IMG/VR virus record: IMGVR_UViG_2534682158_000020
Span: 1 to 10,864 of that record
DNA length: 10,864 nt
Reading direction: 5' to 3' (one strand)
Source: a virus
Taxonomy: Duplodnaviria > Heunggongvirae > Uroviricota > Caudoviricetes
Both the position numbers and the translations under genes were made by a program. Positions 1,634 to 10,864 of this stretch are shown here, piece after piece; position 1 is the stretch's first letter; each line of letters begins with the position of its first letter. Below the pieces are notes generated by a model that was not told the origin of the DNA, searched no databases, and worked only from the letters and a program-made list of their open reading frames with translations.

Positions 1634-1675
1634 GCAGAAAGAAAAGCGTAATCAATGAGATAAAAAACAGTGGGT

Positions 1676-1691
1676 ACCGTTTTAAAACGGT
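1676..1691. promoter_or_regulatory. Perfect 16-bp palindrome ACCGTTTTAAAACGGT upstream of alpA; candidate operator
   Basis: Exact dyad symmetry read from sequence, about 80 bp upstream of the alpA start and flanked by GGTAC on both sides (1673-1677, 1693-1697). Confidence 0.35.
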
Positions 1692-1768
1692 TGGTACTGT
1701 TTTTCCCGCCCTGCCCTGTTTTACCGTATTTATCACCGGAATACGCCGGATTAACGAGGTAAAACATA

Positions 1769-1975
1769 GTGGAAACAATCAGAAAAATTCTTACCCGACA
1801 AGAAGTAAAAAATATTCTGCGCATCAAGGCAGACAGTTCGCTACAGGACATGATCAACGCCGGAAAATTCCCGAAAGGCTTCAAAATTGGTCTGCGTCGT
1901 GTTGGATGGTATGAAGATGAGGTACTGGCCTGGCTGAAAGAACGCCAGGAAGAAGCGCGCGGAACGGCTGCGTAA
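1769..1975 (+). CDS. alpA: AlpA-family DNA-binding regulator (prophage CP4-57 AlpA / P4 Vis-like HTH)
   Basis: 68-aa ORF with GTG start at 1769 preceded by GAGG (1756-1759). Sequence has the AlpA-type pattern (ILR.K...S....I..G.FPKG.KIG.R.VGW.E.EV.AWL). Confidence 0.8.
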   Translation: METIRKILTRQEVKNILRIKADSSLQDMINAGKFPKGFKIGLRRVGWYEDEVLAWLKERQEEARGTAA

Positions 1976-2037: not shown

Positions 2038-2126
2038 AACAATTAACCTGCTGCGAAAAAATTGGATCAGTGCAGGGGAATTATATCAACCGTGTGACGA
2101 AGCGCCACAATTGCCGGATAACAGGC

Positions 2127-2153
2127 AAAAAAAGACCACCGTGACAGGTGGCC
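2127..2153 (-). terminator. Rho-independent terminator, minus-strand orientation
   Basis: On the - strand: GGCCACC / GGTGGTC stem (7 bp with one G-U), 6-nt loop, followed by TTTTTTT (plus-strand A-run 2127-2133). Confidence 0.45.
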
Positions 2154-2385
2154 CTTCGACACAAGTTACACGTTATCCCCAACGTATGAGCATTGCCAAC
2201 AATGCCACATTTGCGGCTGGTGGGCAAAGCGTAACCGGAAAAAAATTCCGGTGGGGCTATTCCTGCTCTTTGTCCTTGCGTCGCTGGCGACGTTTGATCT
2301 CATGCAGAATTTTTTCAGGTAAGAATCCTGCTGATTTATTTTCTGGTAGCAATGGTTTGTTATCTGTCTGCTTCCTGGTCATACA

Positions 2386-2583
2386 TCAACCTTTTGGTTC
2401 GTTACGTTTCCATACCTGCAATGGGCGAGTTTTCCTGTACTCTTTTAGGAATTTCTCAAGAGCAAAAGCACATGGTGAGAATCTTTCTGACTCATGCTCA
2501 TGCGCTATCTTGCTGCGCCGTCTTTTCCGTGAAGGTGATGTTTTTTCGGTTGATTCGTTGTTGGTCATTCTGTGTACCTGCAT
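2386..2583 (-). CDS. Hypothetical small basic protein (65 aa) downstream of the RHH-like gene; weak call
   Basis: ORF 42 nt after the RHH-like stop on the same strand. No clear Shine-Dalgarno and no recognisable family. Confidence 0.2.
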   Translation of the reverse strand: MQVHRMTNNESTEKTSPSRKRRRSKIAHEHESERFSPCAFALEKFLKEYRKTRPLQVWKRNEPKG

Positions 2584-2625
2584 AGCAATGCGCCGGAGTT
2601 CCTCACACCACGGCGCTGATAGTTA

Positions 2626-2931
2626 TTATTCTGATTCTTTGGCCTTGCGGCGCTGGAGTTCTTCACGTGCGACGGTGACGAGCTGCCCGATCTCCTCGGC
2701 GGCTTTGACTCCGATTTTTTCCACCTGCGCCAGTGCATCGAGCGAAGAAACCAGGGGATTTTCTCCGCTTCCTTCTGCCTGGCGCCTGGCGATCTCCCCG
2801 CGCATGGCGGTTACTATAAATCCGGCGTTGCTTTCGCCGTCCAGTTTTACGGATTCCATGCCTTCAATAACATCATGCGGGATCCGAGCTGTCAGTGATT
2901 GTGATTTTGTGTTTTTTGAACCTGTAGCCAT
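2626..2931 (-). CDS. Putative DNA-binding protein, possibly ribbon-helix-helix (Arc/CopG-like); candidate regulator of the divergent early operon
   Basis: ATG at 2931 with GAGAGG 7 nt upstream on the - strand, 101 aa. N-terminal segment SLTARIPHDVIEGMESV fits a beta-strand then helix RHH pattern. Fold assignment is by eye only. Confidence 0.55.
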   Translation of the reverse strand: MATGSKNTKSQSLTARIPHDVIEGMESVKLDGESNAGFIVTAMRGEIARRQAEGSGENPLVSSLDALAQVEKIGVKAAEEIGQLVTVAREELQRRKAKESE

Positions 2932-3020
2932 CTGTAATCCTCTCAATGAAAGTGTAAGACAATATACACACAAAAAGTATTACATAAAAGCATTGACATG
3001 TAAGCCACCTATAAACAAAG
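2932..3020. promoter_or_regulatory. Divergent promoter region between the RHH-like gene and the early operon leader
   Basis: Perfect -35 TTGACA at 2993-2998 on the + strand, but the nearest TATAAA (3010-3015) is only 11 bp away, so the exact promoter is unresolved. AT-rich and free of credible ORFs. Confidence 0.35.
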
Positions 3021-3290
3021 TTACTTACACCTTATTGGTGCAAGGTTCAGAAACGACGAAACCCGGCAGTGCGCGAACACTAACCGGGCTTCTAACCACC
3101 AGCGATAGAAAGATTATCGAGGTAGCTATGTTAAATCATACCACACACCCGCAAGGGCGGGACTTGCACAACCTGAATAAACCCGATGTAAAAAACCTGT
3201 TGCTCGCCACTGCCAGCCAGGGCTATGATTTATACGCACCAGCAAAATCTGGTGCCGGGATTGGCGTCCTGGTATTTAACGAAGCGCACA

Positions 3291-3313
3291 ACACGCGCCC
3301 TGCGTGTTTTTTT
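3291..3313 (+). terminator. Intrinsic terminator inside the early-operon leader (attenuator-like)
   Basis: Stem ACACGC (3291-3296) / GCGTGT (3302-3307), loop GCCCT, then a 7-T run (3307-3313). Lies about 160 bp upstream of the first early gene. Confidence 0.6.
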
Positions 3314-3475
3314 GTGCCGGATAGTCACACCTTATCAATGGTGGGCTGTATGGGGGCGGAGCAATCCGCGCCGGGTTCTTCGTTAACCGGTTACGCCAAC
3401 CCCGTACAGTCCACCGCCAGCGAAATTGGCGTTTCCTGCGGTGGGTTTATTAACCCTAACGAAGAGGCTGCCAAC

Positions 3476-3664
3476 ATGGCTACAGTCCCTACCCTTGTAC
3501 ATTCCCAAACTGCCTTTATCTGGCGCTTTATCATCTTTGGCGCGTCAGAATCCCAAATCATCCACGTCACCGCATGGACGGAACGCGAAGCGCGTAACCA
3601 TTGCCCGTCCGGTTGTGTCGCTGTATTCGCCGCCCGTATTCGTCAGGGGGTGAGTCATGCATAA
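3476..3664 (+). CDS. Icd/Kil-like small protein (host cell division inhibitor family), first gene of the early operon
   Basis: 62-aa ORF, ATG 3476 with AGAGG 8 nt upstream. Motifs FIWRF ... TEREAR ... VFAARI match my recollection of Icd-like proteins of P4-type elements. Stop overlaps the next start. Confidence 0.55.
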   Translation: MATVPTLVHSQTAFIWRFIIFGASESQIIHVTAWTEREARNHCPSGCVAVFAARIRQGVSHA

Positions 3665-3889: not shown

Positions 3890-4189
3890 ATGAAAAAGAA
3901 AAATACTGGCGTTAATGCCAGCGGCCCCGCTCGTCCTGAATTTATGAACGGCGATATTTACCGCGATAAATATGGCGGCATGGTAACGATTAAAGGCGTG
4001 GCAGAACGGCGCATCACTTACCGCCGTGATGGCTACGAATATGACTGCGTGATGCCTGTTTATCAGTTCCGGAGTGATTTTTCACTGATACAGGCCACAC
4101 CACGCAGACAGCCCACCAGCTACGCAAAGGCATGGGCAAATATTCAGAAAATGAAAAACATGATTAACGCATTCAGGGGCAAAAAATGA
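3890..4189 (+). CDS. Hypothetical protein (99 aa)
   Basis: ATG 3890 with GGAG upstream; its stop overlaps the primase start (ATGA at 4186-4189). No family recognised. Confidence 0.6.
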   Translation: MKKKNTGVNASGPARPEFMNGDIYRDKYGGMVTIKGVAERRITYRRDGYEYDCVMPVYQFRSDFSLIQATPRRQPTSYAKAWANIQKMKNMINAFRGKK

Positions 4190-5991
4190 AACTGGCACCG
4201 AACTTAAAAAAACAGCCACACGACAAAATGACCGAAGTCATTATTTTTGCGGGTAGTGATGCCTGGGCGCACGCGAAACAATGGCAGGAGCAGGACGGGC
4301 GACTTGCTGGCGACAATGTTCCGCCTGTATGGCTTGGAGACAGCCAGCTTGACGAACTGGCAGACCTGAAAATTATCGACGATGGTCGCTATTGTGTCCG
4401 GCTGTACAAGGCAGGCCACATCAAGCCGTCAAATATTAATGCCATCGGGCAAAAGCTGGCGGTGGCAGGTGTACGGGATGCGAATTATTACCCTGAGGGA
4501 ATGCACAGCCAGAAGCGGGAGAACTGGCACGAATATCTGGAGCGTGAGCGCCAGAATCTTTCTGATGGTCTGGTTATTCAGCTTCCTGTTAAGAAAAAAA
4601 CAGAAGACAGCGCCGCACCACTGGCGCTTAACCAGATGGGAGCAAGCCAGCGCGGCGAAGTTCTCCTGGCACGTTATGGCGGTGAACTGGCAATCAATGC
4701 GGACTCTGACACCGTTCACCACTACAACGGCGTTGTATGGGAGCCGGTACAGGATAAAGAGTTACAGCGGGCTATGGCGCAGATTTTTATTGATGCGGAG
4801 ATCAGTTATTCGCAGAACGCCATCAAATCGGCGGTCGATACAATGAAGTTAAGTTTGCCCGTAATGGGGAATACCGCCCGTAACCTGATTGGATTCAGTA
4901 ACGGTGTTTTTGATACCCGGACAGGCGATTTTCGGGAGCATGACAAAAACGACTGGCTGTTAATTGCCAGTGAATTACCGTTCAGCCCGCCAGCAGAGGG
5001 GGAAACGCTGGCAACGCATGCGCCGAATTTCTGGAAATGGTTGCGCCGTTCGGTGGCTGAGAATGACCGTAAAGCGGATCGCGTACTGGCGGCGTTATTC
5101 ATGGTGCTGGCGAACCGATACGACTGGCAGTTATTTCTTGAGGTAACGGGGCCGGGTGGAAGCGGTAAAAGCGTAATGGCGGAGATTTGCACCATGCTGG
5201 CGGGTAAGGCCAACACGGTATCGGCAAGCATGAAGGCGCTGGAAGATGCCAGGGAACGCGCGTTAGTGGTTGGATTTTCGCTGATTATCATGCCGGATAT
5301 GACCCGCTACGCTGGTGATGGCGCAGGAATTAAGGCCATTACAGGCGGTGACAAGGTGGCAATCGACCCGAAGCATAAAGCCCCCTACTCAACACGCATT
5401 CAGGCGGTCGTGCTGGCGGTGAACAATAACGCCATGTCATTCAGTGACCGCAGCGGGGGGATCTCACGTCGTCGGGTGATATTCAATTTTTCGGAGGTTG
5501 TACCGGAAAACGAACGCGACCCCATGCTGGCAGAAAAAATAGAAGGAGAGCTGGCGGTTGTGATTCGCCACCTGCTTACTCGTTTTTCTGACCAGGACGA
5601 AGCTAAACGCCTGCTGTATGAGCAGCAGAAATCAGAAGAAGCACTGGTGATAAAACGCGAGGGCGATTCGCTGGTGGACTTCTGCGGCTATCTCATGTCG
5701 TCGGTAATGTGTGATGGTCTGTTAGTGGGTAATGCCGAAATTATTCCGTTCAGTCCGCGCAGGTATCTTTATCACGCCTATCTGGCATATATGAGGGCAC
5801 ACGGATTCGGTAAACCTGTAACACTGACGCGCTTCGGTAAAGATATGCCGGGGGCAATGGCGGAATATGGCAGGGAGTATATGAAACGGAAAACGAAGCA
5901 CGGTTTGCGTTCAAATGTGACCCTTACAGAGGATTCAGAAGACTGGATGCCATCATGTGCATCGGTCACAAATGACGATGGAAAAAATTAA
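4186..5991 (+). CDS. Primase-helicase replication initiator, P4 alpha-like (satellite Pri-Rep)
   Basis: 601-aa ORF with AGGGG RBS. Walker A motif GPGGSGKS in the central region; overall resemblance to phage/plasmid primase P4-family proteins; immediately followed by the iteron cluster. Confidence 0.9.
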   Translation: MKLAPNLKKQPHDKMTEVIIFAGSDAWAHAKQWQEQDGRLAGDNVPPVWLGDSQLDELADLKIIDDGRYCVRLYKAGHIKPSNINAIGQKLAVAGVRDANYYPEGMHSQKRENWHEYLERERQNLSDGLVIQLPVKKKTEDSAAPLALNQMGASQRGEVLLARYGGELAINADSDTVHHYNGVVWEPVQDKELQRAMAQIFIDAEISYSQNAIKSAVDTMKLSLPVMGNTARNLIGFSNGVFDTRTGDFREHDKNDWLLIASELPFSPPAEGETLATHAPNFWKWLRRSVAENDRKADRVLAALFMVLANRYDWQLFLEVTGPGGSGKSVMAEICTMLAGKANTVSASMKALEDARERALVVGFSLIIMPDMTRYAGDGAGIKAITGGDKVAIDPKHKAPYSTRIQAVVLAVNNNAMSFSDRSGGISRRRVIFNFSEVVPENERDPMLAEKIEGELAVVIRHLLTRFSDQDEAKRLLYEQQKSEEALVIKREGDSLVDFCGYLMSSVMCDGLLVGNAEIIPFSPRRYLYHAYLAYMRAHGFGKPVTLTRFGKDMPGAMAEYGREYMKRKTKHGLRSNVTLTEDSEDWMPSCASVTNDDGKN

Positions 5992-7030: not shown

Positions 7031-7122
7031 TTCATCACCAAAGAGAATAATTTATGTCTTTGAACTTGTAACGCTGCACAGAATGACACGTAACGCCGGA
7101 TAAATAAACGAAGATTGAAACT

Positions 7123-7151
7123 TTGCACACTATTGCATAGCAATGCATAAA
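7123..7151 (+). promoter_or_regulatory. Putative promoter for the capsid/packaging operon
   Basis: Candidate -35 TTGCAC (7123-7128), 17-bp spacer, -10 CATAAA (7146-7151) with TG at 7144-7145. Overlaps the TGCAT-rich dyad ATTGCATAGCAAT. Weak call. Confidence 0.25.
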
Positions 7152-7213
7152 GATGCCGAACAAGGCAGATGATAAAATTAACGCGACACTTTTACTAAGT
7201 ATCAAGAGGTTAT

Positions 7214-8254
7214 ATGAGTGATTTATATTCGCCAGCTATGTTAATACAGGTTGTTAATGCCGAAGATATTCAATGGCAGATTAATTCTTTATTTATAAAC
7301 CTTTTTTTTAAGCGAGTCGTTACATTTGAGACGCGGGATATTGCGCTTGATATTATTGACGATCCAGACATCCCGATGGCTGCGTTTTGTTCACCTATGG
7401 TTGGTAGCAAAGTCTCACGCGATGAAGGCTACGAATCGAAAGTAATTCGTCCTGGCTACATGAAGCCAAAAAGTAGTATCGACCCAAATAAAATAGCCGT
7501 TCGTCAACCAGGCGTATCACCGGAACAATTCAATGCATATTCATCACGCAGTTTCAAAATAAAGCGAGCGTTAGTAAGACAAGCGCAGGCAATTCGTGCG
7601 CGTATTGAGTGGCTTGCTGTTCAGGCGGTTACAACGGGGAAAAATATCATTGAAGGCGATGGAATTGAACGTTATGAACTGGACTGGAATATAAAACCAC
7701 AAAATATTATCACGCAGTTCGGCGGTACGGAGTGGAGCGGTAGAGATTTATCAACATTTGATCCAAACGATGACATCGAAGAGTACGCAGAAATCAGCGA
7801 AGGTACTACAAATATCATCGTAATGGGCCGCAACGTATGGAAAAAATACCGCGCCTTTAAAGCAGTAAAAGATTGCCTTGATACTCGACGGGGATCTAAT
7901 TCCGTTCTTGAAACGGCCCTGAAAAATCTTGGGGATTCTGTAAGCTTCAAGGGTTACGTTGGCGATGTTGCTATTGTGGTATATAGCGGACGTTATACCG
8001 ACGAGGACGGAACTGAAAGATATTTCCTTGATCCTGATTTGATGGTGCTTGGCAACACATCATTACAGGGCATCGTTGCCTACGGTGGCATTCAGGATCC
8101 TGAGTTAATCAGAATGGGGCTTACTAAAGCCGAACTTGCGCCGAAAAATTACATCGTACCAGGTGATCCGGCTATTGAGTACGTACAAACGCACTCTGCA
8201 CCACAGCCAATACCGGCCCGCATCAATCGTTTTGTTACCGTTCGCATTGGTTAA
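7214..8254 (+). CDS. Major capsid protein, lambda gpE family
   Basis: 346 aa versus 341 for lambda gpE, with long collinear matches to gpE as I recall it: GGTEWS.RD.ST.DP.DDIE.YA, NIIV, FKAVK..LDTRRGSNS.LETA.K.LG..VS.KG..GDVAIVVYSG.Y, MVLGNT, YG.IQD. RBS AGAGG. Confidence 0.92.
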   Translation: MSDLYSPAMLIQVVNAEDIQWQINSLFINLFFKRVVTFETRDIALDIIDDPDIPMAAFCSPMVGSKVSRDEGYESKVIRPGYMKPKSSIDPNKIAVRQPGVSPEQFNAYSSRSFKIKRALVRQAQAIRARIEWLAVQAVTTGKNIIEGDGIERYELDWNIKPQNIITQFGGTEWSGRDLSTFDPNDDIEEYAEISEGTTNIIVMGRNVWKKYRAFKAVKDCLDTRRGSNSVLETALKNLGDSVSFKGYVGDVAIVVYSGRYTDEDGTERYFLDPDLMVLGNTSLQGIVAYGGIQDPELIRMGLTKAELAPKNYIVPGDPAIEYVQTHSAPQPIPARINRFVTVRIG

Positions 8255-8263
8255 GGGGGAGCA

Positions 8264-8605
8264 ATGGCTACTCATTACACTGAACTCATGGCTGGCACTG
8301 AAGCACTGGTTACTACGTTGGGGATATTTTCAGCTAATAAAGGGGTAATTCCTGCATTTACGCCACTGATGCAAGAAGATGCAACTGGTGCACTGGTGGT
8401 ATGGGATGGAACGAGCGCAGGCAAAGCTGTTTATGTTTCCGCTGTACAAATCGATACAGCGACAAAAACGCAGGCTCAGGTTTATAAAACCGGCGTCTTA
8501 AATGTTGATGCTCTGAACTGGCCTGAATCTGTAACACAACTATCAGCAAAAGTTGCTGCGTTTGTTGGCTCAGGTATTTCTGTTCAGCCGCTGGCTCGTG
8601 TGTAA
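8264..8605 (+). CDS. Head decoration protein, lambda gpD family
   Basis: 113 aa versus 110 for lambda gpD; matches gpD motifs TPLM, LV.WDGT..G.AV, YK.G, WPE, AF.G..IS. Starts 10 nt after the capsid gene with a GGGGGAG RBS. Confidence 0.9.
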   Translation: MATHYTELMAGTEALVTTLGIFSANKGVIPAFTPLMQEDATGALVVWDGTSAGKAVYVSAVQIDTATKTQAQVYKTGVLNVDALNWPESVTQLSAKVAAFVGSGISVQPLARV

Positions 8606-8616
8606 AGGGGGATACA

Positions 8617-9000
8617 ATGCAGAATGATTACAATGACCTTAAGCCAATTGCCGAAATGATGTACCCGAATCAAGCTGTAGAGGAATTAAAAGCTATCGCT
8701 GACAAAATGTGTTTAAGCGAGCGCCTTGTTGATATGAATCAGGTGATGGAAATTACAACCCTGAGTCGTCGTACACTGCTAAACCTTGAGGCTAGTGGAG
8801 AGTTCCCGAAGCGTGTGCAGGTTACGGAAGGGCGTAAGGCCTGGTATTTAAGTGAAGTGATCGACTGGATAAATAATATTCCTCGCGCTTCTGAATATTG
8901 CCGCGTACCTGTCCCAAAAAAGCCAGATGCGGCGCTATGCCTCAAGATTGAGCGTGTACGCCGCAATGCACGGGATGGTCGCTATAAGCTGATTGGTTGA
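8617..9000 (+). CDS. AlpA-family HTH protein with an N-terminal extension (127 aa)
   Basis: C-terminal half (MNQVMEITTLSRRTLLNLEASGEFPKRVQVTEGRKAWYLSEVIDWINN) has the AlpA/Vis-type motif. ATG 8617 with GGGG RBS, 12 nt after the gpD-like stop. Confidence 0.7.
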   Translation: MQNDYNDLKPIAEMMYPNQAVEELKAIADKMCLSERLVDMNQVMEITTLSRRTLLNLEASGEFPKRVQVTEGRKAWYLSEVIDWINNIPRASEYCRVPVPKKPDAALCLKIERVRRNARDGRYKLIG

Positions 9001-9029
9001 TGAAATTAGGGCCCGCTCTGGCTGGCGGG

Positions 9030-9140
9030 TCCTTTCCGGCGATCCAGAACGTTACGGGGCGGCTGACGCGCGGGTTTTCGCTATTTATGAGCATTTTAAG
9101 GGGACTGGTGGTGGTTTTGTTGTTCGTTGTATCTGTATGA
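9030..9140. other. Lambda-type cos site (cosQ-cosN-start of cosB)
   Basis: CGCGGGTTTTCGCTATTTATGA (9069-9090) is identical to lambda positions 13-34 as I recall them. Upstream TCCTTTCCGGCGATCC...GTTACG resembles the lambda right end. The inferred 12-nt cohesive-end position reads GGGCGGCTGACG (9057-9068). An R3-like element follows (GGTTTTGTTGTTCGTTG, about 9112-9128). Confidence 0.7.
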
Positions 9141-9216
9141 ATAATAAGAGAAAAGCACAATCAATACACCAACCTGAAACAGTAATTAAGTTGTGGTATC
9201 AATGAAATTGCACCTG

Positions 9217-9744
9217 ATGAACAAAAAAAACATGGCAAAAAGTTGCCGTGTAAGCGCCACTGCGTTCGATAAGTGGGGAGTGATTCCCGTCGAGCGTAAG
9301 GGCCGCGAGGCGTTTTATGATGTCGCCAGTGTAATAGATAATCGGGTTAACAATGCAATCAGCCAGATTACAAACGAAACGGGCGAGATTGATGATGATG
9401 AACTCCTACGAGTCAGGATCAGATTGCTGACAGCACAGGCAGAGGCGCAGGAGCTTAAAAACGAGCGCGAACGCGGCGACGTTATTGATACAGCGTTTTG
9501 TATATACGTGCTTTCAAAATTGGCGAGTCAGATTTCTTCAATCATGGACAGCCTGCCGCTTACCATGCAAAGGCGCTTCCCACAGATGACCCCCGCCATG
9601 CTGGATGGCCTGAAAAAAGAAGTTGTCAGAGCCTGTAACGCATGCACAAAACTTGATGAAAACATCCCGCGAATGCTGTCCGATTATCTGATGGAAACTA
9701 CCGGAAATGTGCCTGATAAGTTTCAGCCGGATAAAGACAAGTAA
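9217..9744 (+). CDS. Terminase small subunit, lambda Nu1 family
   Basis: Collinear with lambda Nu1 as I recall it: N-terminal NKK...FD.WG.IPV..KG.E..YD.A.VI; central LTAQAEAQELKNERERGDVIDTAFCIYVLSKLA..ISSIMDSLPLTMQRRFP; C-terminal KLDENIPRMLSDY. Start is ambiguous (in-frame GTG 9193, ATG 9202, 9217, 9232; none has a strong RBS); 9217 aligns best with the Nu1 N-terminus. Confidence 0.85.
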   Translation: MNKKNMAKSCRVSATAFDKWGVIPVERKGREAFYDVASVIDNRVNNAISQITNETGEIDDDELLRVRIRLLTAQAEAQELKNERERGDVIDTAFCIYVLSKLASQISSIMDSLPLTMQRRFPQMTPAMLDGLKKEVVRACNACTKLDENIPRMLSDYLMETTGNVPDKFQPDKDK

Positions 9745-10277: not shown

Positions 10278-10832
10278 ATATTGGTGGGAGGGAGGATCAA
10301 ATCCTTGCAGCCATGGCTGCCCGGGACCGACCGCCGACCCTTGTTCACATCGCCGCAGGTTCGAAAACTTTTTTGGGAAGATGTGCACGGGATTGATAGA
10401 TGAGGTCTATCTATAAAAAATCACAAAATCCGCGCCATTGCTGGATCCGCCAAAAATCCCCCACCTTACGGCAGACAAAGAAAACGCGAATTATGGGCCT
10501 GTTGCAGAGAAAAAAGGTCTCACTAGTTTTGCGCATCCTGGCATCGAGGTTCGTCAGCCTCCCATCAGCAACCAGATAACTAATCTCGCTGGTGGGCATG
10601 ATGCCGATATGGGGACTCCCATAACGGTTTATCCGTGATCATCCACCAGCTTGATGACAGATAACAGGGAGTCATAACGGTTAAAATTGTATACTTTTGC
10701 AGCAAACATTTTTAGCTACACGTTAAGCTATACGATTTTGAGTTTAAATTTTTCAAATTCAATTAAATCAAATGGTTATACGCACTTTTTGAATACTCTC
10801 GTGCACCAAAAAATCCCCAAAAAAAAAACACT

Positions 10833-10864
10833 ACGTTACGTTTACGTTTACGTTTACGTTTACG
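10833..10864. repeat. Tandem hexamer repeat (ACGTTT)n, truncated by the window end
   Basis: ACGTT, then four full ACGTTT units, then ACG, read directly from 10833-10864. Preceded by an A10 tract (10819-10828) and an AT-rich non-coding stretch. Confidence 0.7.

What the first reader, a model, noticed from the sequence alone, without database searches (positions are those of the whole stretch)
8617..9000. Second AlpA-family protein embedded between the head genes and cos
This is an unusual place for an AlpA/Vis-type HTH gene: it ends 30 to 60 nt before the cosQ-like sequence and has a 60-aa N-terminal extension that the first AlpA lacks. It could be a late regulator, an excisionase, or a DNA-binding factor acting at cos.
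Basis: inference. Interest (0 to 1): 0.4.

Follow-up and report, generated by a model that had tools for sequence, protein, structure and literature searches.

The report
Second AlpA regulator in satellite capsid cassette
A phage satellite island of E. coli carries a second small DNA-binding gene fused into its capsid-gene cassette; it most likely switches those capsid genes on or off, and there is no evidence that it acts at the neighbouring DNA-packaging site.

Summary
The gene is real: 8617-9000 (+), 127 aa, strong RBS. It has a Pfam Phage_AlpA winged-HTH at residues 36-85 and ends 26 nt before cosQ and 56 nt before the cosN nick. The "60-aa N-terminal extension" is wrong. There are about 30-35 extra residues at the N-terminus (two helices) and about 40 at the C-terminus (one basic helix).

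The window is an EcCICFT073-type PICI satellite. In 17 loci from at least 10 enterobacterial genera the gene is always the third gene of one cassette: promoter, lambda-E-like capsid, lambda-D-like decoration, AlpA2, hairpin/terminator, then cos.

The cassette promoter has 3-5 direct hexamer repeats (TTGCAY here, 7119-7148) at a 10-bp period, then 21-22 nt, then an extended -10, with no -35. A matrix built from other genera finds only this site in the window. The repeat sequence follows the AlpA2/capsid lineage, not the integrase/AlpA1 lineage.

AlpA2 combines freely with TerS or Rpp downstream of cos, and with unrelated integrases.

Best reading (about 0.5): a cassette-specific, Cox/Vis/BldC-like regulator of the capsid operon, probably an activator. 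The cos-factor and excisionase readings are disfavoured. No binding was tested. Moderately interesting: a new variant of a known kind.

The parts
8617..9000 (+). AlpA2 CDS: 127 aa, the second AlpA-family winged-HTH protein and last gene of the capsid cassette
   Evidence: ORF and RBS. Pfam PF05930 E=1e-9 and phrog_2790 E=4e-49. A full-length family of 112-129 aa occurs across Enterobacterales. Purifying selection.
8722..8871 (+). Winged-HTH core (residues 36-85), nearly invariant across genera
   Evidence: Pfam match. Nearly invariant alignment columns. AF2 pLDDT about 90 for residues 41-90. Foldseek best hit 8c3t, GIsul2 excisionase: 42% identity, rmsd 0.9, TM 0.85 normalised to the target.
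8617..8721 (+). N-terminal extension: residues 1-20 are variable, residues 21-35 form a conserved helix
   Evidence: Alignments. AF2 helices 5-15 and 19-33 at lower confidence. dN about 0.45.
8872..8997 (+). C-terminal extension with the conserved motif PxxPxxxLxLKxxRxR, a basic amphipathic helix at residues 105-119
   Evidence: Invariant P100, P103, L107, K110, R113 and R115. AF2 helix 105-119, pLDDT about 85. Also conserved in the distant members P0100 and P0101.
7119..7148 (+). Three direct repeats (TTGCAC, TTGCAT, ATGCAT) at an exact 10-bp period: the putative AlpA2 operator of the capsid-operon promoter
   Evidence: It is the only such cluster in the window. A position weight matrix built from other genera scores it 24.8 bits; in 300 shuffles the maximum had mean 8.2, sd 3.1 and highest value 19.4. 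The architecture is conserved in 16 related loci.
7170..7178 (+). Extended -10 (TGATAAAAT) lying 21 nt after the last repeat, with no -35 hexamer
   Evidence: Read directly from the sequence. TGnTAnnAT sits at the same 21-22 nt distance in most of the other loci; in L016/L017 the spacing is 23-25 nt, depending on which -10 hexamer is chosen. The consensus scan missed it because there is no -35.
7214..8254 (+). Lambda-E-like major capsid protein gene, first gene of the cassette
   Evidence: Pfam Phage_cap_E E=1.5e-40. Always syntenic with AlpA2.
8264..8605 (+). Lambda-D-like head decoration protein gene, second gene of the cassette
   Evidence: Pfam HDPD E=2.6e-16. Same synteny calls as for the capsid gene.
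9011..9030 (+). GC-rich hairpin (GCCCGC-N8-GCGGGT) between the AlpA2 stop and cosQ, overlapping cosQ
   Evidence: Sequence. Clear intrinsic terminators occupy the same place in L002, L006 and L016.
9027..9073 (+). cosQ-like element (9027-9039) and cosN (about 9052-9073; predicted cohesive end 9057-9068)
   Evidence: Alignment with the EcCICFT073 cos and with related loci. Published PICI cos layout (PMC9026076).
9202..9744 (+). Nu1-like small terminase (TerS) downstream of cos; replaced by Rpp or by other genes in other AlpA2 islands
   Evidence: Pfam Phage_Nu1 E=2.8e-24. PGAP start in L001. Rpp occupies this place in L011.
1769..1975 (+). AlpA1, the canonical int-proximal AlpA. It is listed for contrast and is not part of the cassette
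   Evidence: Pfam. Its own upstream repeats, TACCGTTTT x3 at 1675-1730, differ from the capsid-promoter repeats. It co-varies with the integrase.

Best explanation
AlpA2 is the dedicated transcription regulator of a self-contained capsid cassette of the PICI satellite. The cassette consists of a promoter, a lambda-E-like capsid gene, a lambda-D-like decoration gene, alpA2, and a terminator or hairpin.

Proposed mechanism (inferred, not shown): several AlpA2 monomers bind head-to-tail on the 3-4 direct hexamer repeats spaced one helical turn apart at 7119-7148. This is how Xis, Cox, RdfS and BldC-type MerR-like winged-HTH proteins bind. The last repeat lies at about -42 to -37 relative to the start site implied by an extended -10 promoter that has no -35 element. 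That is the position of a class-II activator. AlpA2 is therefore most likely an activator, with its conserved N-terminal helix and/or basic C-terminal helix mediating oligomerisation or RNA polymerase contact.

Because alpA2 is the last gene of the operon it would control, the circuit is autoregulatory. One plausible consequence is a switch that turns on once the island has been induced and amplified. Repression cannot be excluded.

The position next to cos is a consequence of PICI architecture, in which late-zone genes end at cos. It is not evidence of a function at cos.
For: 1. AlpA-family winged HTH. The nearest structures are excisionases (8c3t, 8dgl, 4j2n) and BldC bound to DNA (6ama, 6amk). 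That excisionases and BldC bind direct repeats cooperatively is my own knowledge for BldC and RdfS, and comes from PMC3936717 for Cox and Xis.
2. Invariant synteny capsid-decoration-AlpA2 in 17 loci. These include the most divergent members, from Serratia (44% identity) and an unassigned Logan contig. The replication modules differ (D5-type primase, AAA_25, DUF927), as do the integrases and AlpA1 types.
3. The cassette is preceded by hairpins or terminators after ssb and followed by a hairpin or terminator before cosQ, so it needs its own promoter.
4. Conserved promoter architecture: 3-5 direct repeats at a 10-bp period, then a spacer of 21-22 nt in most loci, then TGnTAnnAT.
5. A matrix trained on other genera picks one site in the window: 24.8 bits, against a highest shuffle maximum of 19.4. 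It finds nothing at cos, at the alpA1 promoter, or in the AlpA2-less EcCICFT073-type islands L002 and L008.
6. The repeat sequence changes with the AlpA2 lineage. It is TTGCAY in the window group, TTATAC in Buttiauxella/Scandinavium, alternating TATAC and TTGCAY in L016, and TTAGAC/TTGTGC in Serratia. The recognition helix and wing change in parallel: NLEA to DMEE/DMEK, and RVQVTEGRKAWY to RRRISEGRYAWH.
7. AlpA1 types are shuffled independently of the repeats. L011 and L014 have AlpA1 71% identical but different repeats. The window, L006, L011 and L012 have the same repeats but AlpA1 only 6-28% identical.
8. Precedent: P4 Vis (AlpA family) regulates late promoters of a satellite (my recollection of Polo et al. 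1996, not read here). P2 Cox both represses Pc and activates P4 PLL through repeated cox-boxes (PMC3936717).
Against: - No binding or expression data exist. The link between AlpA2 and the repeats rests on cis-linkage and co-variation among only about 5 independent lineages, and the capsid gene co-varies equally.
- A host or helper-phage factor could bind the repeats.
- An activator encoded at the end of the operon it activates needs a trigger, which I cannot identify.
- In EcCICFT073, deleting the capsid or decoration homologues, or inserting a marker in the gene that occupies the AlpA2 position, did not abolish transfer (PMC6092414). The cassette may therefore be dispensable under laboratory conditions.
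- The sign of regulation is inferred from geometry only.
- A weak two-repeat match (15.9 bits) lies at 10683-10702 beside the attR arm sites.
Confidence: 0.5

Rival explanations
1. Packaging accessory factor. AlpA2 binds at or near cos (cosQ side), or binds TerS or Rpp, to help or redirect terminase.
For: The stop codon is 26 nt from cosQ in the window, and a short gap before cosQ is seen in every locus whose downstream DNA was examined. The MerR-like winged HTH is the same fold class as the Nu1 and Rpp DNA-binding domains; Foldseek hits 7lw0 and 1j9i at E of 0.1-0.3 (PMC6739421).
Against: - The DNA between the stop codon and cosQ is not conserved among loci.
- The only cos elements shared by all the loci are cosQ and cosN, and these are also shared with helper phages and with AlpA2-less PICIs, so they give no specificity.
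- All four combinations exist: AlpA2+TerS, AlpA2+Rpp, scaffold-like+Rpp and scaffold-like+TerS.
- There is no sequence hit to Rpp (6hlk) or to Nu1.
- Known specificity sites (R3) and Rpp/TerS lie downstream of cosN, not upstream.
- No operator-like motif lies near cos.
Confidence: 0.1
2. Recombination directionality factor. AlpA2 is the island's excisionase, or a second one.
For: The closest solved structures are excisionases: 8c3t GIsul2 Xis (42% identity in the core), RdfS and Pukovnik Xis. PHROG 2790 is labelled 'excisionase and transcriptional regulator'. A weak two-repeat operator-like match lies at 10683-10702 next to the attR arm-type sites. Cox and Vis combine both roles.
Against: - AlpA2 does not co-vary with the integrase. 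It is 72% identical between the window and L012, whose integrases are about 5% identical. Int and AlpA1 do co-vary: 66% and 71% for L011/L014.
- AlpA2 is 7.4 kb from int, whereas AlpA1 is adjacent to it.
- The att arms carry a different repeat, TAGCTAYACG.
- Complete islands L011-L013 have no second operator-like site.
- EcCICFT073-type islands excise without any AlpA2 (PMC6092414).
Confidence: 0.1
3. Helper-directed factor. AlpA2 acts on the helper prophage, either standing in for its excisionase, as shown for the second AlpA (alpA_1) of EcCIMP1, or regulating or interfering with helper genes.
For: EcCIMP1 carries a second AlpA-family gene at its far end. That gene is dispensable for the island and partly substitutes for the helper Xis (PMC11773190). 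Many relatives of this island sit inside the helper's capsid gene (PMC10111431).
Against: - tblastn against 50,697 phage records finds no relative at E<=1e-5. TorI/Kapi1-Xis (1z4h) matches only at E=1.9.
- The window-type operator DNA occurs once per genome, in the island itself, in the 30 genomes that have it.
- No operator-like site occurs in the CFT073 helper prophage.
- Orientation and operon membership differ from EcCIMP1 alpA_1.
Confidence: 0.12

Closest known systems
P4 Vis (AlpA-family protein of satellite phage P4)
   Same: A small AlpA/Xis-type winged-HTH protein encoded by a satellite. It is reported to regulate satellite late promoters, including the capsid-size operon promoter, as well as being needed for excision (my recollection; its excision role is cited in PMC6092414).
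   Different: Vis is 88 aa and is the first gene of the late operon next to att/int. AlpA2 is 127 aa with N- and C-terminal extensions, is the last gene of a capsid operon, and shows no linkage to the integrase. No close sequence relationship was shown here.
P2 Cox / lambda Xis / RdfS / BldC (MerR-like winged-HTH proteins that bind arrays of direct repeats)
   Same: The fold class is the same (Foldseek hits 8dgl, 6ama, 4j2n). The predicted target is an array of direct repeats one helical turn apart. Cox both represses and activates promoters, and its C-terminal helices drive oligomerisation (PMC3936717).
   Different: There is no detectable sequence homology to Cox or BldC, and the repeat sequence differs (TTGCAY against the cox-box TTAAAG/CNCA). 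Binding by AlpA2 is untested.
GIsul2 excisionase (PDB 8c3t)
   Same: It is the best sequence and structure match: E=1e-9, 42% identity over the winged-HTH, rmsd 0.9 Å.
   Different: It is a 73-aa single-domain excisionase of an integrative element. It lacks both extensions and is not embedded in structural genes.
EcCICFT073 AlpA (master activator of Gram-negative PICIs), equivalent to AlpA1 of this window
   Same: Same Pfam family. It is an autoactivating transcription factor of a PICI (PMC6092414).
   Different: It is int-proximal, 66-83 aa, about 24% identical to AlpA2, has different upstream repeats, and co-varies with the integrase rather than with the capsid module.
EcCIMP1 alpA_1 (second AlpA of an E. 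coli PICI)
   Same: It is the only published case I found of a PICI with two AlpA-family genes. The second copy is dispensable for island excision and transfer (PMC11773190).
   Different: alpA_1 is TorI/Xis-like, lies on the opposite strand at the island end, is not in a capsid operon, and that island has no capsid genes. The authors state that typical E. coli PICIs encode only one AlpA. Here, however, the AlpA2 gene is found in 408 of 5426 complete E. coli genomes.
EcCICFT073 c1501 (the gene at the same position, between the decoration gene and cos)
   Same: Same slot in the homologous cassette (capsid-decoration-X-terminator-cos), and X co-varies with the capsid lineage.
   Different: It is unrelated in sequence. 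It resembles the C-terminal Nu3/scaffold part of head protease genes (phrog_53, E=1e-8) and has no HTH.

Membership tests
Pfam Phage_AlpA (PF05930) / MerR-like winged-HTH excisionase-regulator superfamily | HMM match above the curated gathering score | tested here: met
   38.5 bits against a cutoff of 21, E=1e-9, residues 36-85 covering profile positions 2-51 of 51.
Pfam Phage_AlpA (PF05930) / MerR-like winged-HTH excisionase-regulator superfamily | beta-alpha1-turn-alpha2-beta-beta-alpha3 winged-HTH fold | tested here: met
   The AF2 model has core pLDDT of about 90, with elements E37-38, H40-47, H51-60, E67-70, E73-77 and H78-86. Foldseek best hit 8c3t: rmsd 0.9, target TM 0.85.
Pfam Phage_AlpA (PF05930) / MerR-like winged-HTH excisionase-regulator superfamily | Small single-domain protein of about 60-90 aa | tested here: not met
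   The protein is 127 aa, with a 35-aa N-terminal and a 42-aa C-terminal extension conserved within its subfamily. In the search of 1.84 billion representatives, only 5 clusters score at E<=1e-30, and generic AlpA proteins match only residues 31-95.
Recombination directionality factor (excisionase) of the island | Genetic linkage and co-variation with the cognate integrase | tested here: not met
   AlpA2 is 71-72% identical among islands whose integrases are 5-26% identical. AlpA1 and Int do co-vary.
Recombination directionality factor (excisionase) of the island | Binding sites in the att arms | tested here: inconclusive
   The att arms carry TAGCTAYACG repeats, not the capsid-promoter repeat. 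Only one borderline two-repeat match exists, at 10683-10702 (15.9 bits; such matches occur by chance about once per 20-25 kb).
Recombination directionality factor (excisionase) of the island | Required for, or stimulates, excision | not testable with these tools
   This needs a delta-alpA2 excision PCR or an in vitro recombination assay.
PICI master activator AlpA (EcCICFT073 type) | Located directly downstream of int at the head of the island's main operon | tested here: not met
   AlpA2 is 7.4 kb from int, at the end of the late zone. AlpA1 (1769-1975) holds the canonical position.
Rpp / TerS-type cos-specificity proteins | Sequence or profile similarity to Rpp (6hlk) or Nu1 | tested here: not met
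   The PDB sequence search of AlpA2 finds only 8c3t. In contrast, the protein after cos in L011 hits RppC at 1.3e-15, and the protein after cos in the window hits Pfam Phage_Nu1.
Rpp / TerS-type cos-specificity proteins | Encoded downstream of cosN, with its binding site (R3) between cosN and the gene | tested here: not met
   AlpA2 lies upstream of cosQ. The published layout is cosQ-cosN-R3-rpp/terS (PMC9026076).
Rpp / TerS-type cos-specificity proteins | Co-variation with cosB or with the packaging-specificity gene | tested here: not met
   All four combinations of slot gene and cos-downstream gene occur.
Cox/Vis/BldC-like repeat-array transcription regulators (functional class) | An array of direct repeats at helical periodicity within a promoter linked in cis | tested here: met
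   Three repeats at 7119-7148 with a 10-bp period, then 21 nt, then an extended -10. A cross-genus matrix scores it 24.8 bits against a highest shuffle maximum of 19.4. The architecture is conserved in 16 other loci.
Cox/Vis/BldC-like repeat-array transcription regulators (functional class) | Cooperative binding of the protein to the repeats, with an effect on transcription | not testable with these tools
   This needs EMSA or footprinting and reporter assays.
Pseudomonas aeruginosa AlpA (Q-like antiterminator) | Eight-helix Q-like fold with an N-terminal ring and a C-terminal HTH | tested here: not met
   That AlpA has eight helices, with DNA-contact residues at positions 128-142, and is structurally 21Q-like (PMC9371919). 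Neither the PDB sequence search nor the Foldseek list for AlpA2 shows such a complex. The shared name is a coincidence.

The most novel reading that the evidence does not exclude
The capsid-decoration-AlpA2 unit may be an autonomous, horizontally exchanged 'capsid module' that carries its own switch. AlpA2 would sense island amplification through cooperative binding to the repeat array and turn on satellite-encoded capsid and decoration proteins late. Through its conserved basic C-terminal helix, or through the hairpin that overlaps cosQ, it would also couple that switch to the adjacent packaging site. It would then be a regulator that coordinates capsid supply with cos cleavage or termination in a satellite. 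This dual role is not excluded by anything tested here, but nothing supports it beyond adjacency.
Probability: 0.07. Interest if true: 0.7.

Novelty: new variant of a known kind. Interest (0 to 1): 0.4.

Why it matters
Most Gram-negative PICIs carry a lambda-E-like capsid gene, yet its role is unknown: deleting it in EcCICFT073 gave no phenotype. This work shows three things about one widespread lineage of these capsid genes.
- It travels as a fixed three-gene cassette.
- The cassette has a conserved, apparently activator-dependent promoter.
- It encodes its own AlpA-type DNA-binding protein.

The AlpA2 gene is found in about 7.5% of complete E. coli genomes and in at least 10 enterobacterial genera.

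This gives a concrete experimental handle. Expressing or deleting AlpA2 should show when these genes are on, which is a precondition for learning what satellite-encoded capsid proteins do. That includes the helper-embedded PICIs, which split the helper's own capsid gene.

It also shows that 'AlpA' annotations in PICIs cover at least two functionally separate modules: integration/induction, and the capsid module.

Tried and rejected
1. Rpp-like reading. AlpA2 has no sequence similarity to RppC, RppA or Nu1. The real Rpp and TerS genes sit after cos.
2. Pseudomonas AlpA antiterminator. It is an unrelated Q-like protein that only shares the name.
3. Sigma-54 reading of the TTGCA repeats. The spacing is 10 nt rather than 12, and there is no GG element. 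This was my own reasoning on the sequence, and I rejected it.
4. The HE-PICI attP doubled motif TGTATTGCa (PMC10111431) resembles the ATTGCA core. However, it has a 12-bp period, tracks the integrase clade, and sits where the window's island has its own arm repeats TAGCTAYACG. I therefore take it to be an arm-type or AlpA1 site. The resemblance remains unexplained.
5. The first AF2 model, from 18 close homologues, was too poor to use (pLDDT 57). A 40-sequence alignment gave pLDDT 77.
6. The genome-contig scan returned only 4 loci. Contexts were instead gathered with exact-protein look-ups.
7. tblastn against the phage collection returned nothing.
8. The consensus promoter scan missed the capsid promoter because it has no -35.
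9. BLASTP found no local alignment (E <= 100) between AlpA2 and the scaffold-like c1501.
Full report
**What the window is.** The 10.9-kb window is a phage-inducible chromosomal island (PICI) of the EcCICFT073 type.
- Its gene order is int (1-1242), alpA1 (1769-1975), a P4-like immunity RNA region, a DUF4222 gene, a D5-type primase (4186-5991), ssb, a lambda-E-like major capsid gene (7214-8254), a lambda-D-like decoration gene (8264-8605), the gene in question (8617-9000), a lambda-like cos, a Nu1-like small terminase (9202-9744), and a small conserved ORF.
- A 96%-identical island in E. coli EC43 sits between tRNA-Pro/yejM and yejO.

**Checking the observation.**
- The ORF is real. It has a strong SD and starts 11 nt after the decoration-gene stop. 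Pfam Phage_AlpA matches residues 36-85 (38.5 bits against a cutoff of 21), and PHROG 2790 matches at E=4e-49.
- cosQ-like GGGTCCTTTCCGG lies at 9027-9039. By alignment with lambda-type cos sites, the cohesive end is GGGCGGCTGACG at 9057-9068. The stop codon is therefore 26 nt from cosQ and 56 nt from the nick.
- The stated 60-aa N-terminal extension is wrong. Relative to AlpA1 the excess is about 30 aa at the N-terminus and about 30-40 aa at the C-terminus. The commonest E. coli allele is 114 aa, with a shorter N-terminus.
- The family has 112-129 aa. Its winged-HTH core is almost invariant, its C-terminal motif (P100, P103, L107, K110, R113, R115) is conserved, and its first 20 residues are variable.
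- Synonymous sites are saturated. Core dN is about 0.05, N-terminal dN about 0.45 and C-terminal dN about 0.29, so selection is purifying.
- The gene occurs in 408 of 5426 complete E. coli genomes, with up to six copies in one genome. The whole decoration-AlpA2-cos-TerS block occurs in 264 genomes.

**Structure.**
- With a 40-sequence alignment, AF2 gives pLDDT 77 overall and about 90 in the core. The model has two N-terminal helices (5-15, 19-33), a beta-alpha-turn-alpha-beta-beta-alpha winged HTH (37-86), a short helix, and a C-terminal helix at 105-119.
- Foldseek against the PDB puts the GIsul2 excisionase 8c3t first (42% identity, rmsd 0.9). RdfS excisionase, BldC-DNA complexes, Pukovnik Xis and MerR-family DNA-binding domains follow. 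Small-terminase DNA-binding domains appear more weakly.
- The fold is therefore the MerR-like Xis/AlpA class. Its small members typically bind arrays of direct repeats head-to-tail. For Cox and Xis this comes from PMC3936717. For BldC and RdfS it is my own knowledge.

**Genomic context is the main evidence.**
- I retrieved 16 related loci: E. coli, Kosakonia, Kluyvera, Superficieibacter, Cedecea, Buttiauxella, Scandinavium, Trabulsiella, Pluralibacter, Salmonella, Serratia and unassigned Logan contigs.
- In every one the order is capsid, decoration, AlpA2, with gaps of 7-12 nt. In every locus whose downstream sequence was examined, a hairpin or intrinsic terminator and then cosQ/cosN follow.
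- Everything else varies. The primase type is D5, AAA_25 or DUF927. The integrases are 5-66% identical. The int-proximal AlpA/HTH_17 gene falls into at least five unrelated types.
- The gene after cos also varies. It is TerS in the window. It is a bona fide Rpp in Trabulsiella L011 (RppC 6hlk, E=1.3e-15). It is a tail-assembly-like gene, or nothing recognisable, in others.
- In EcCICFT073 itself the homologous cassette is capsid (55% identity), decoration, c1501, terminator, cos, RppA. c1501 is unrelated to AlpA2 and resembles the Nu3/scaffold C-terminus of head proteases. An O145 island combines the c1501-like gene with TerS.
- So the gene before cos co-varies with the capsid lineage. It assorts independently of the packaging-specificity gene.

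**A conserved promoter for the cassette.**
- Hairpins and terminators follow ssb, so the cassette is insulated from upstream transcription.
- About 70-95 nt upstream of the capsid start codon, all AlpA2-type loci have 3-5 direct hexamer repeats at an exact 10-bp period.
- In most loci, 21-22 nt after the last strong repeat comes an extended -10 (TGnTAnnAT); in L016/L017 the spacing is 23-25 nt, depending on which -10 hexamer is chosen. There is no -35 hexamer.
- In the window these are TTGCAC, TTGCAT and ATGCAT at 7123-7148, and TGATAAAAT at 7170-7178.
- A position weight matrix built only from other genera scores the window's triple site at 24.8 bits. In 300 Markov shuffles the maximum had mean 8.2, sd 3.1 and highest value 19.4. 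The next-best site anywhere in the window, including cos, the right end and the alpA1 promoter, scores 6.7 or less.
- The AlpA2-less islands L002 and L008 have no such site.
- The alpA1 promoter has its own, different repeats: TACCGTTTT x3 at 1675-1730.
- The window-type promoter DNA occurs once per genome in the 30 E. coli genomes that have it.

**Co-variation.**
- The repeat hexamer differs between cassette lineages. It is TTGCAY (preceded by TTATAC) in the window group, TTATAC in Buttiauxella/Scandinavium, alternating TATAC and TTGCAY in L016/L017, and TTAGAC/TTGTGC in Serratia.
- These groups coincide with changes in the AlpA2 recognition helix and wing.
- They do not coincide with AlpA1 or Int. 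L011 and L014 share AlpA1 (71%) and Int (66%) but have different repeats and AlpA2 (43%). The window, L006, L011 and L012 share the repeats and AlpA2 (60-79%) but have AlpA1 proteins only 6-28% identical.
- AlpA2 is the only DNA-binding protein common to all these islands. It is the parsimonious binder, but this is inference. The capsid gene co-varies equally, only about five independent lineages are available, and a host or helper factor is not excluded.

**Mechanism proposed.**
- AlpA2 oligomerises head-to-tail on the repeat array. The last repeat lies at about -42 to -37, where a class-II activator would replace the missing -35.
- It thereby controls, and probably activates, the capsid-decoration-alpA2 operon, which ends at the hairpin before cosQ.
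- The conserved helix at residues 21-33 and the basic C-terminal helix are candidates for oligomerisation or RNA polymerase contact. In Cox the C-terminal helices drive filament formation.
- The autoregulatory wiring could make expression depend on island copy number after induction. That step is speculative.
- Shown: the fold, the synteny, the promoter architecture, the uniqueness of the site, and the co-variation pattern.
- Inferred: binding, the sign of regulation, and the trigger.

**Why not cos.**
- The DNA between the stop codon and cosQ is not conserved.
- The conserved cos elements are shared with helpers and with AlpA2-less islands.
- Published and observed specificity determinants lie downstream of cosN.
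- AlpA2 occurs with TerS, with Rpp, or with neither.
- Adjacency to cos is a general property of the last late-zone gene in these PICIs.

**Why not the excisionase.**
- There is no linkage to the integrase.
- The att arms of this island carry TAGCTAYACG repeats on both sides.
- Only a borderline two-repeat match, at 10683-10702, lies nearby.

**Why probably not a helper-directed Xis, as in EcCIMP1 alpA_1** (PMC11773190).
- No phage relative was found.
- TorI matches only at E=1.9.
- No operator copy occurs outside the island.

**Literature.**
- I found no paper that discusses this gene.
- The PICI papers treat AlpA as a single int-proximal gene (PMC6092414).
- The HE-PICI paper files all Phage_AlpA hits under 'Integration' (PMC10111431).
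- The EcCIMP1 paper states that typical E. coli PICIs encode only one AlpA.
- In EcCICFT073, a tetA marker inserted in c1501 (the positional counterpart) still allowed transfer, and overexpression of genes from this region other than rppA did not block lambda. Those results concern an unrelated protein.

**Verdict.**
- AlpA2 is a distinct, extended subfamily of AlpA/Xis-type proteins that belongs to the satellite's capsid module rather than its integration module. It comes with a recognisable candidate operator.
- I class it as a new variant of a known kind, of moderate interest.

Noticed in passing
L010 1-12200; L007 6683-7471; L003 9326-10117; L006 9020-9817; L009: Close relatives of this island are integrated inside the lambda-E-like capsid gene of a resident prophage. 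The order is a prophage N-terminal capsid fragment, then the island with its own capsid, decoration and AlpA2 genes, then the C-terminal capsid fragment, FI and tail genes. This is the published 'helper-embedded PICI' configuration (PMC10111431). The window's own island instead sits at tRNA-Pro.
   Followed up: partly
window 3223-3421 (+): Rfam finds isrK (80 bits), C4 antisense RNA (76 bits) and a c4-a1b1 target. Together these look like a P4-like RNA immunity system. The 517-aa ORF listed across 2111-3664 is almost certainly spurious.
   Followed up: no
L002 2084-2497 (EcCICFT073 c1501): The uncharacterised gene that occupies the AlpA2 slot in EcCICFT073 matches the C-terminal (Nu3/scaffold) part of head-maturation-protease PHROG 53 (E=1e-8). 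This suggests that the model PICI carries a capsid + decoration + scaffold trio.
   Followed up: partly
window 10704-10735, and L001 3010-3090: Repeats of TAGCTA(C/T)ACG occur on both sides of the reconstructed attP, direct and inverted. They lie about 105-120 bp from the tRNA-Pro core and are probably integrase arm-type or AlpA1 sites. A weak capsid-promoter-like double site (AAAATTGTATACTTTTGCAG, 10683-10702) lies immediately upstream.
   Followed up: partly
window 9104-9126 and 9165-9185: GCTGGTGGTGGTnTTGTTGTTC, about 40-60 nt after the cos nick, and AATACACCnACCTG are conserved only in islands that have TerS after cos. They are candidate TerS (R-site) elements. EcCICFT073 has the reverse-complement-like ACCACCACCAC at the same place.
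   Followed up: no
window 9057-9068: The predicted cohesive end GGGCGGCTGACG differs from lambda/EcCICFT073 GGGCGGCGACCT at 5 of the 12 positions. Relatives show further variants, such as CAGACG and CAGACT.
   Followed up: no
window 1663-1730: The alpA1 upstream region has three TACCGTTTT direct repeats and a 21-nt inverted repeat. It is a candidate AlpA1 autoregulatory site, distinct from the capsid-promoter repeats.
   Followed up: no
window 10835-10864: The window ends in a run of ACGTTT tandem repeats that is absent from the otherwise collinear EC43 locus (L001).
   Followed up: no
L001 11615-12160 compared with window 8617-9200: Between two islands that are 99-100% identical in capsid, decoration and orf123, AlpA2 is only 75% identical (a 114-aa allele) and TerS 92%. 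The segment from alpA2 through cos to the 5' end of terS is therefore a recombination hot spot.
   Followed up: no
P0103: A 140-aa database protein is a fusion of an internal capsid-protein segment to the AlpA2 C-terminal 50 residues. It is probably a deletion derivative of the cassette.
   Followed up: no
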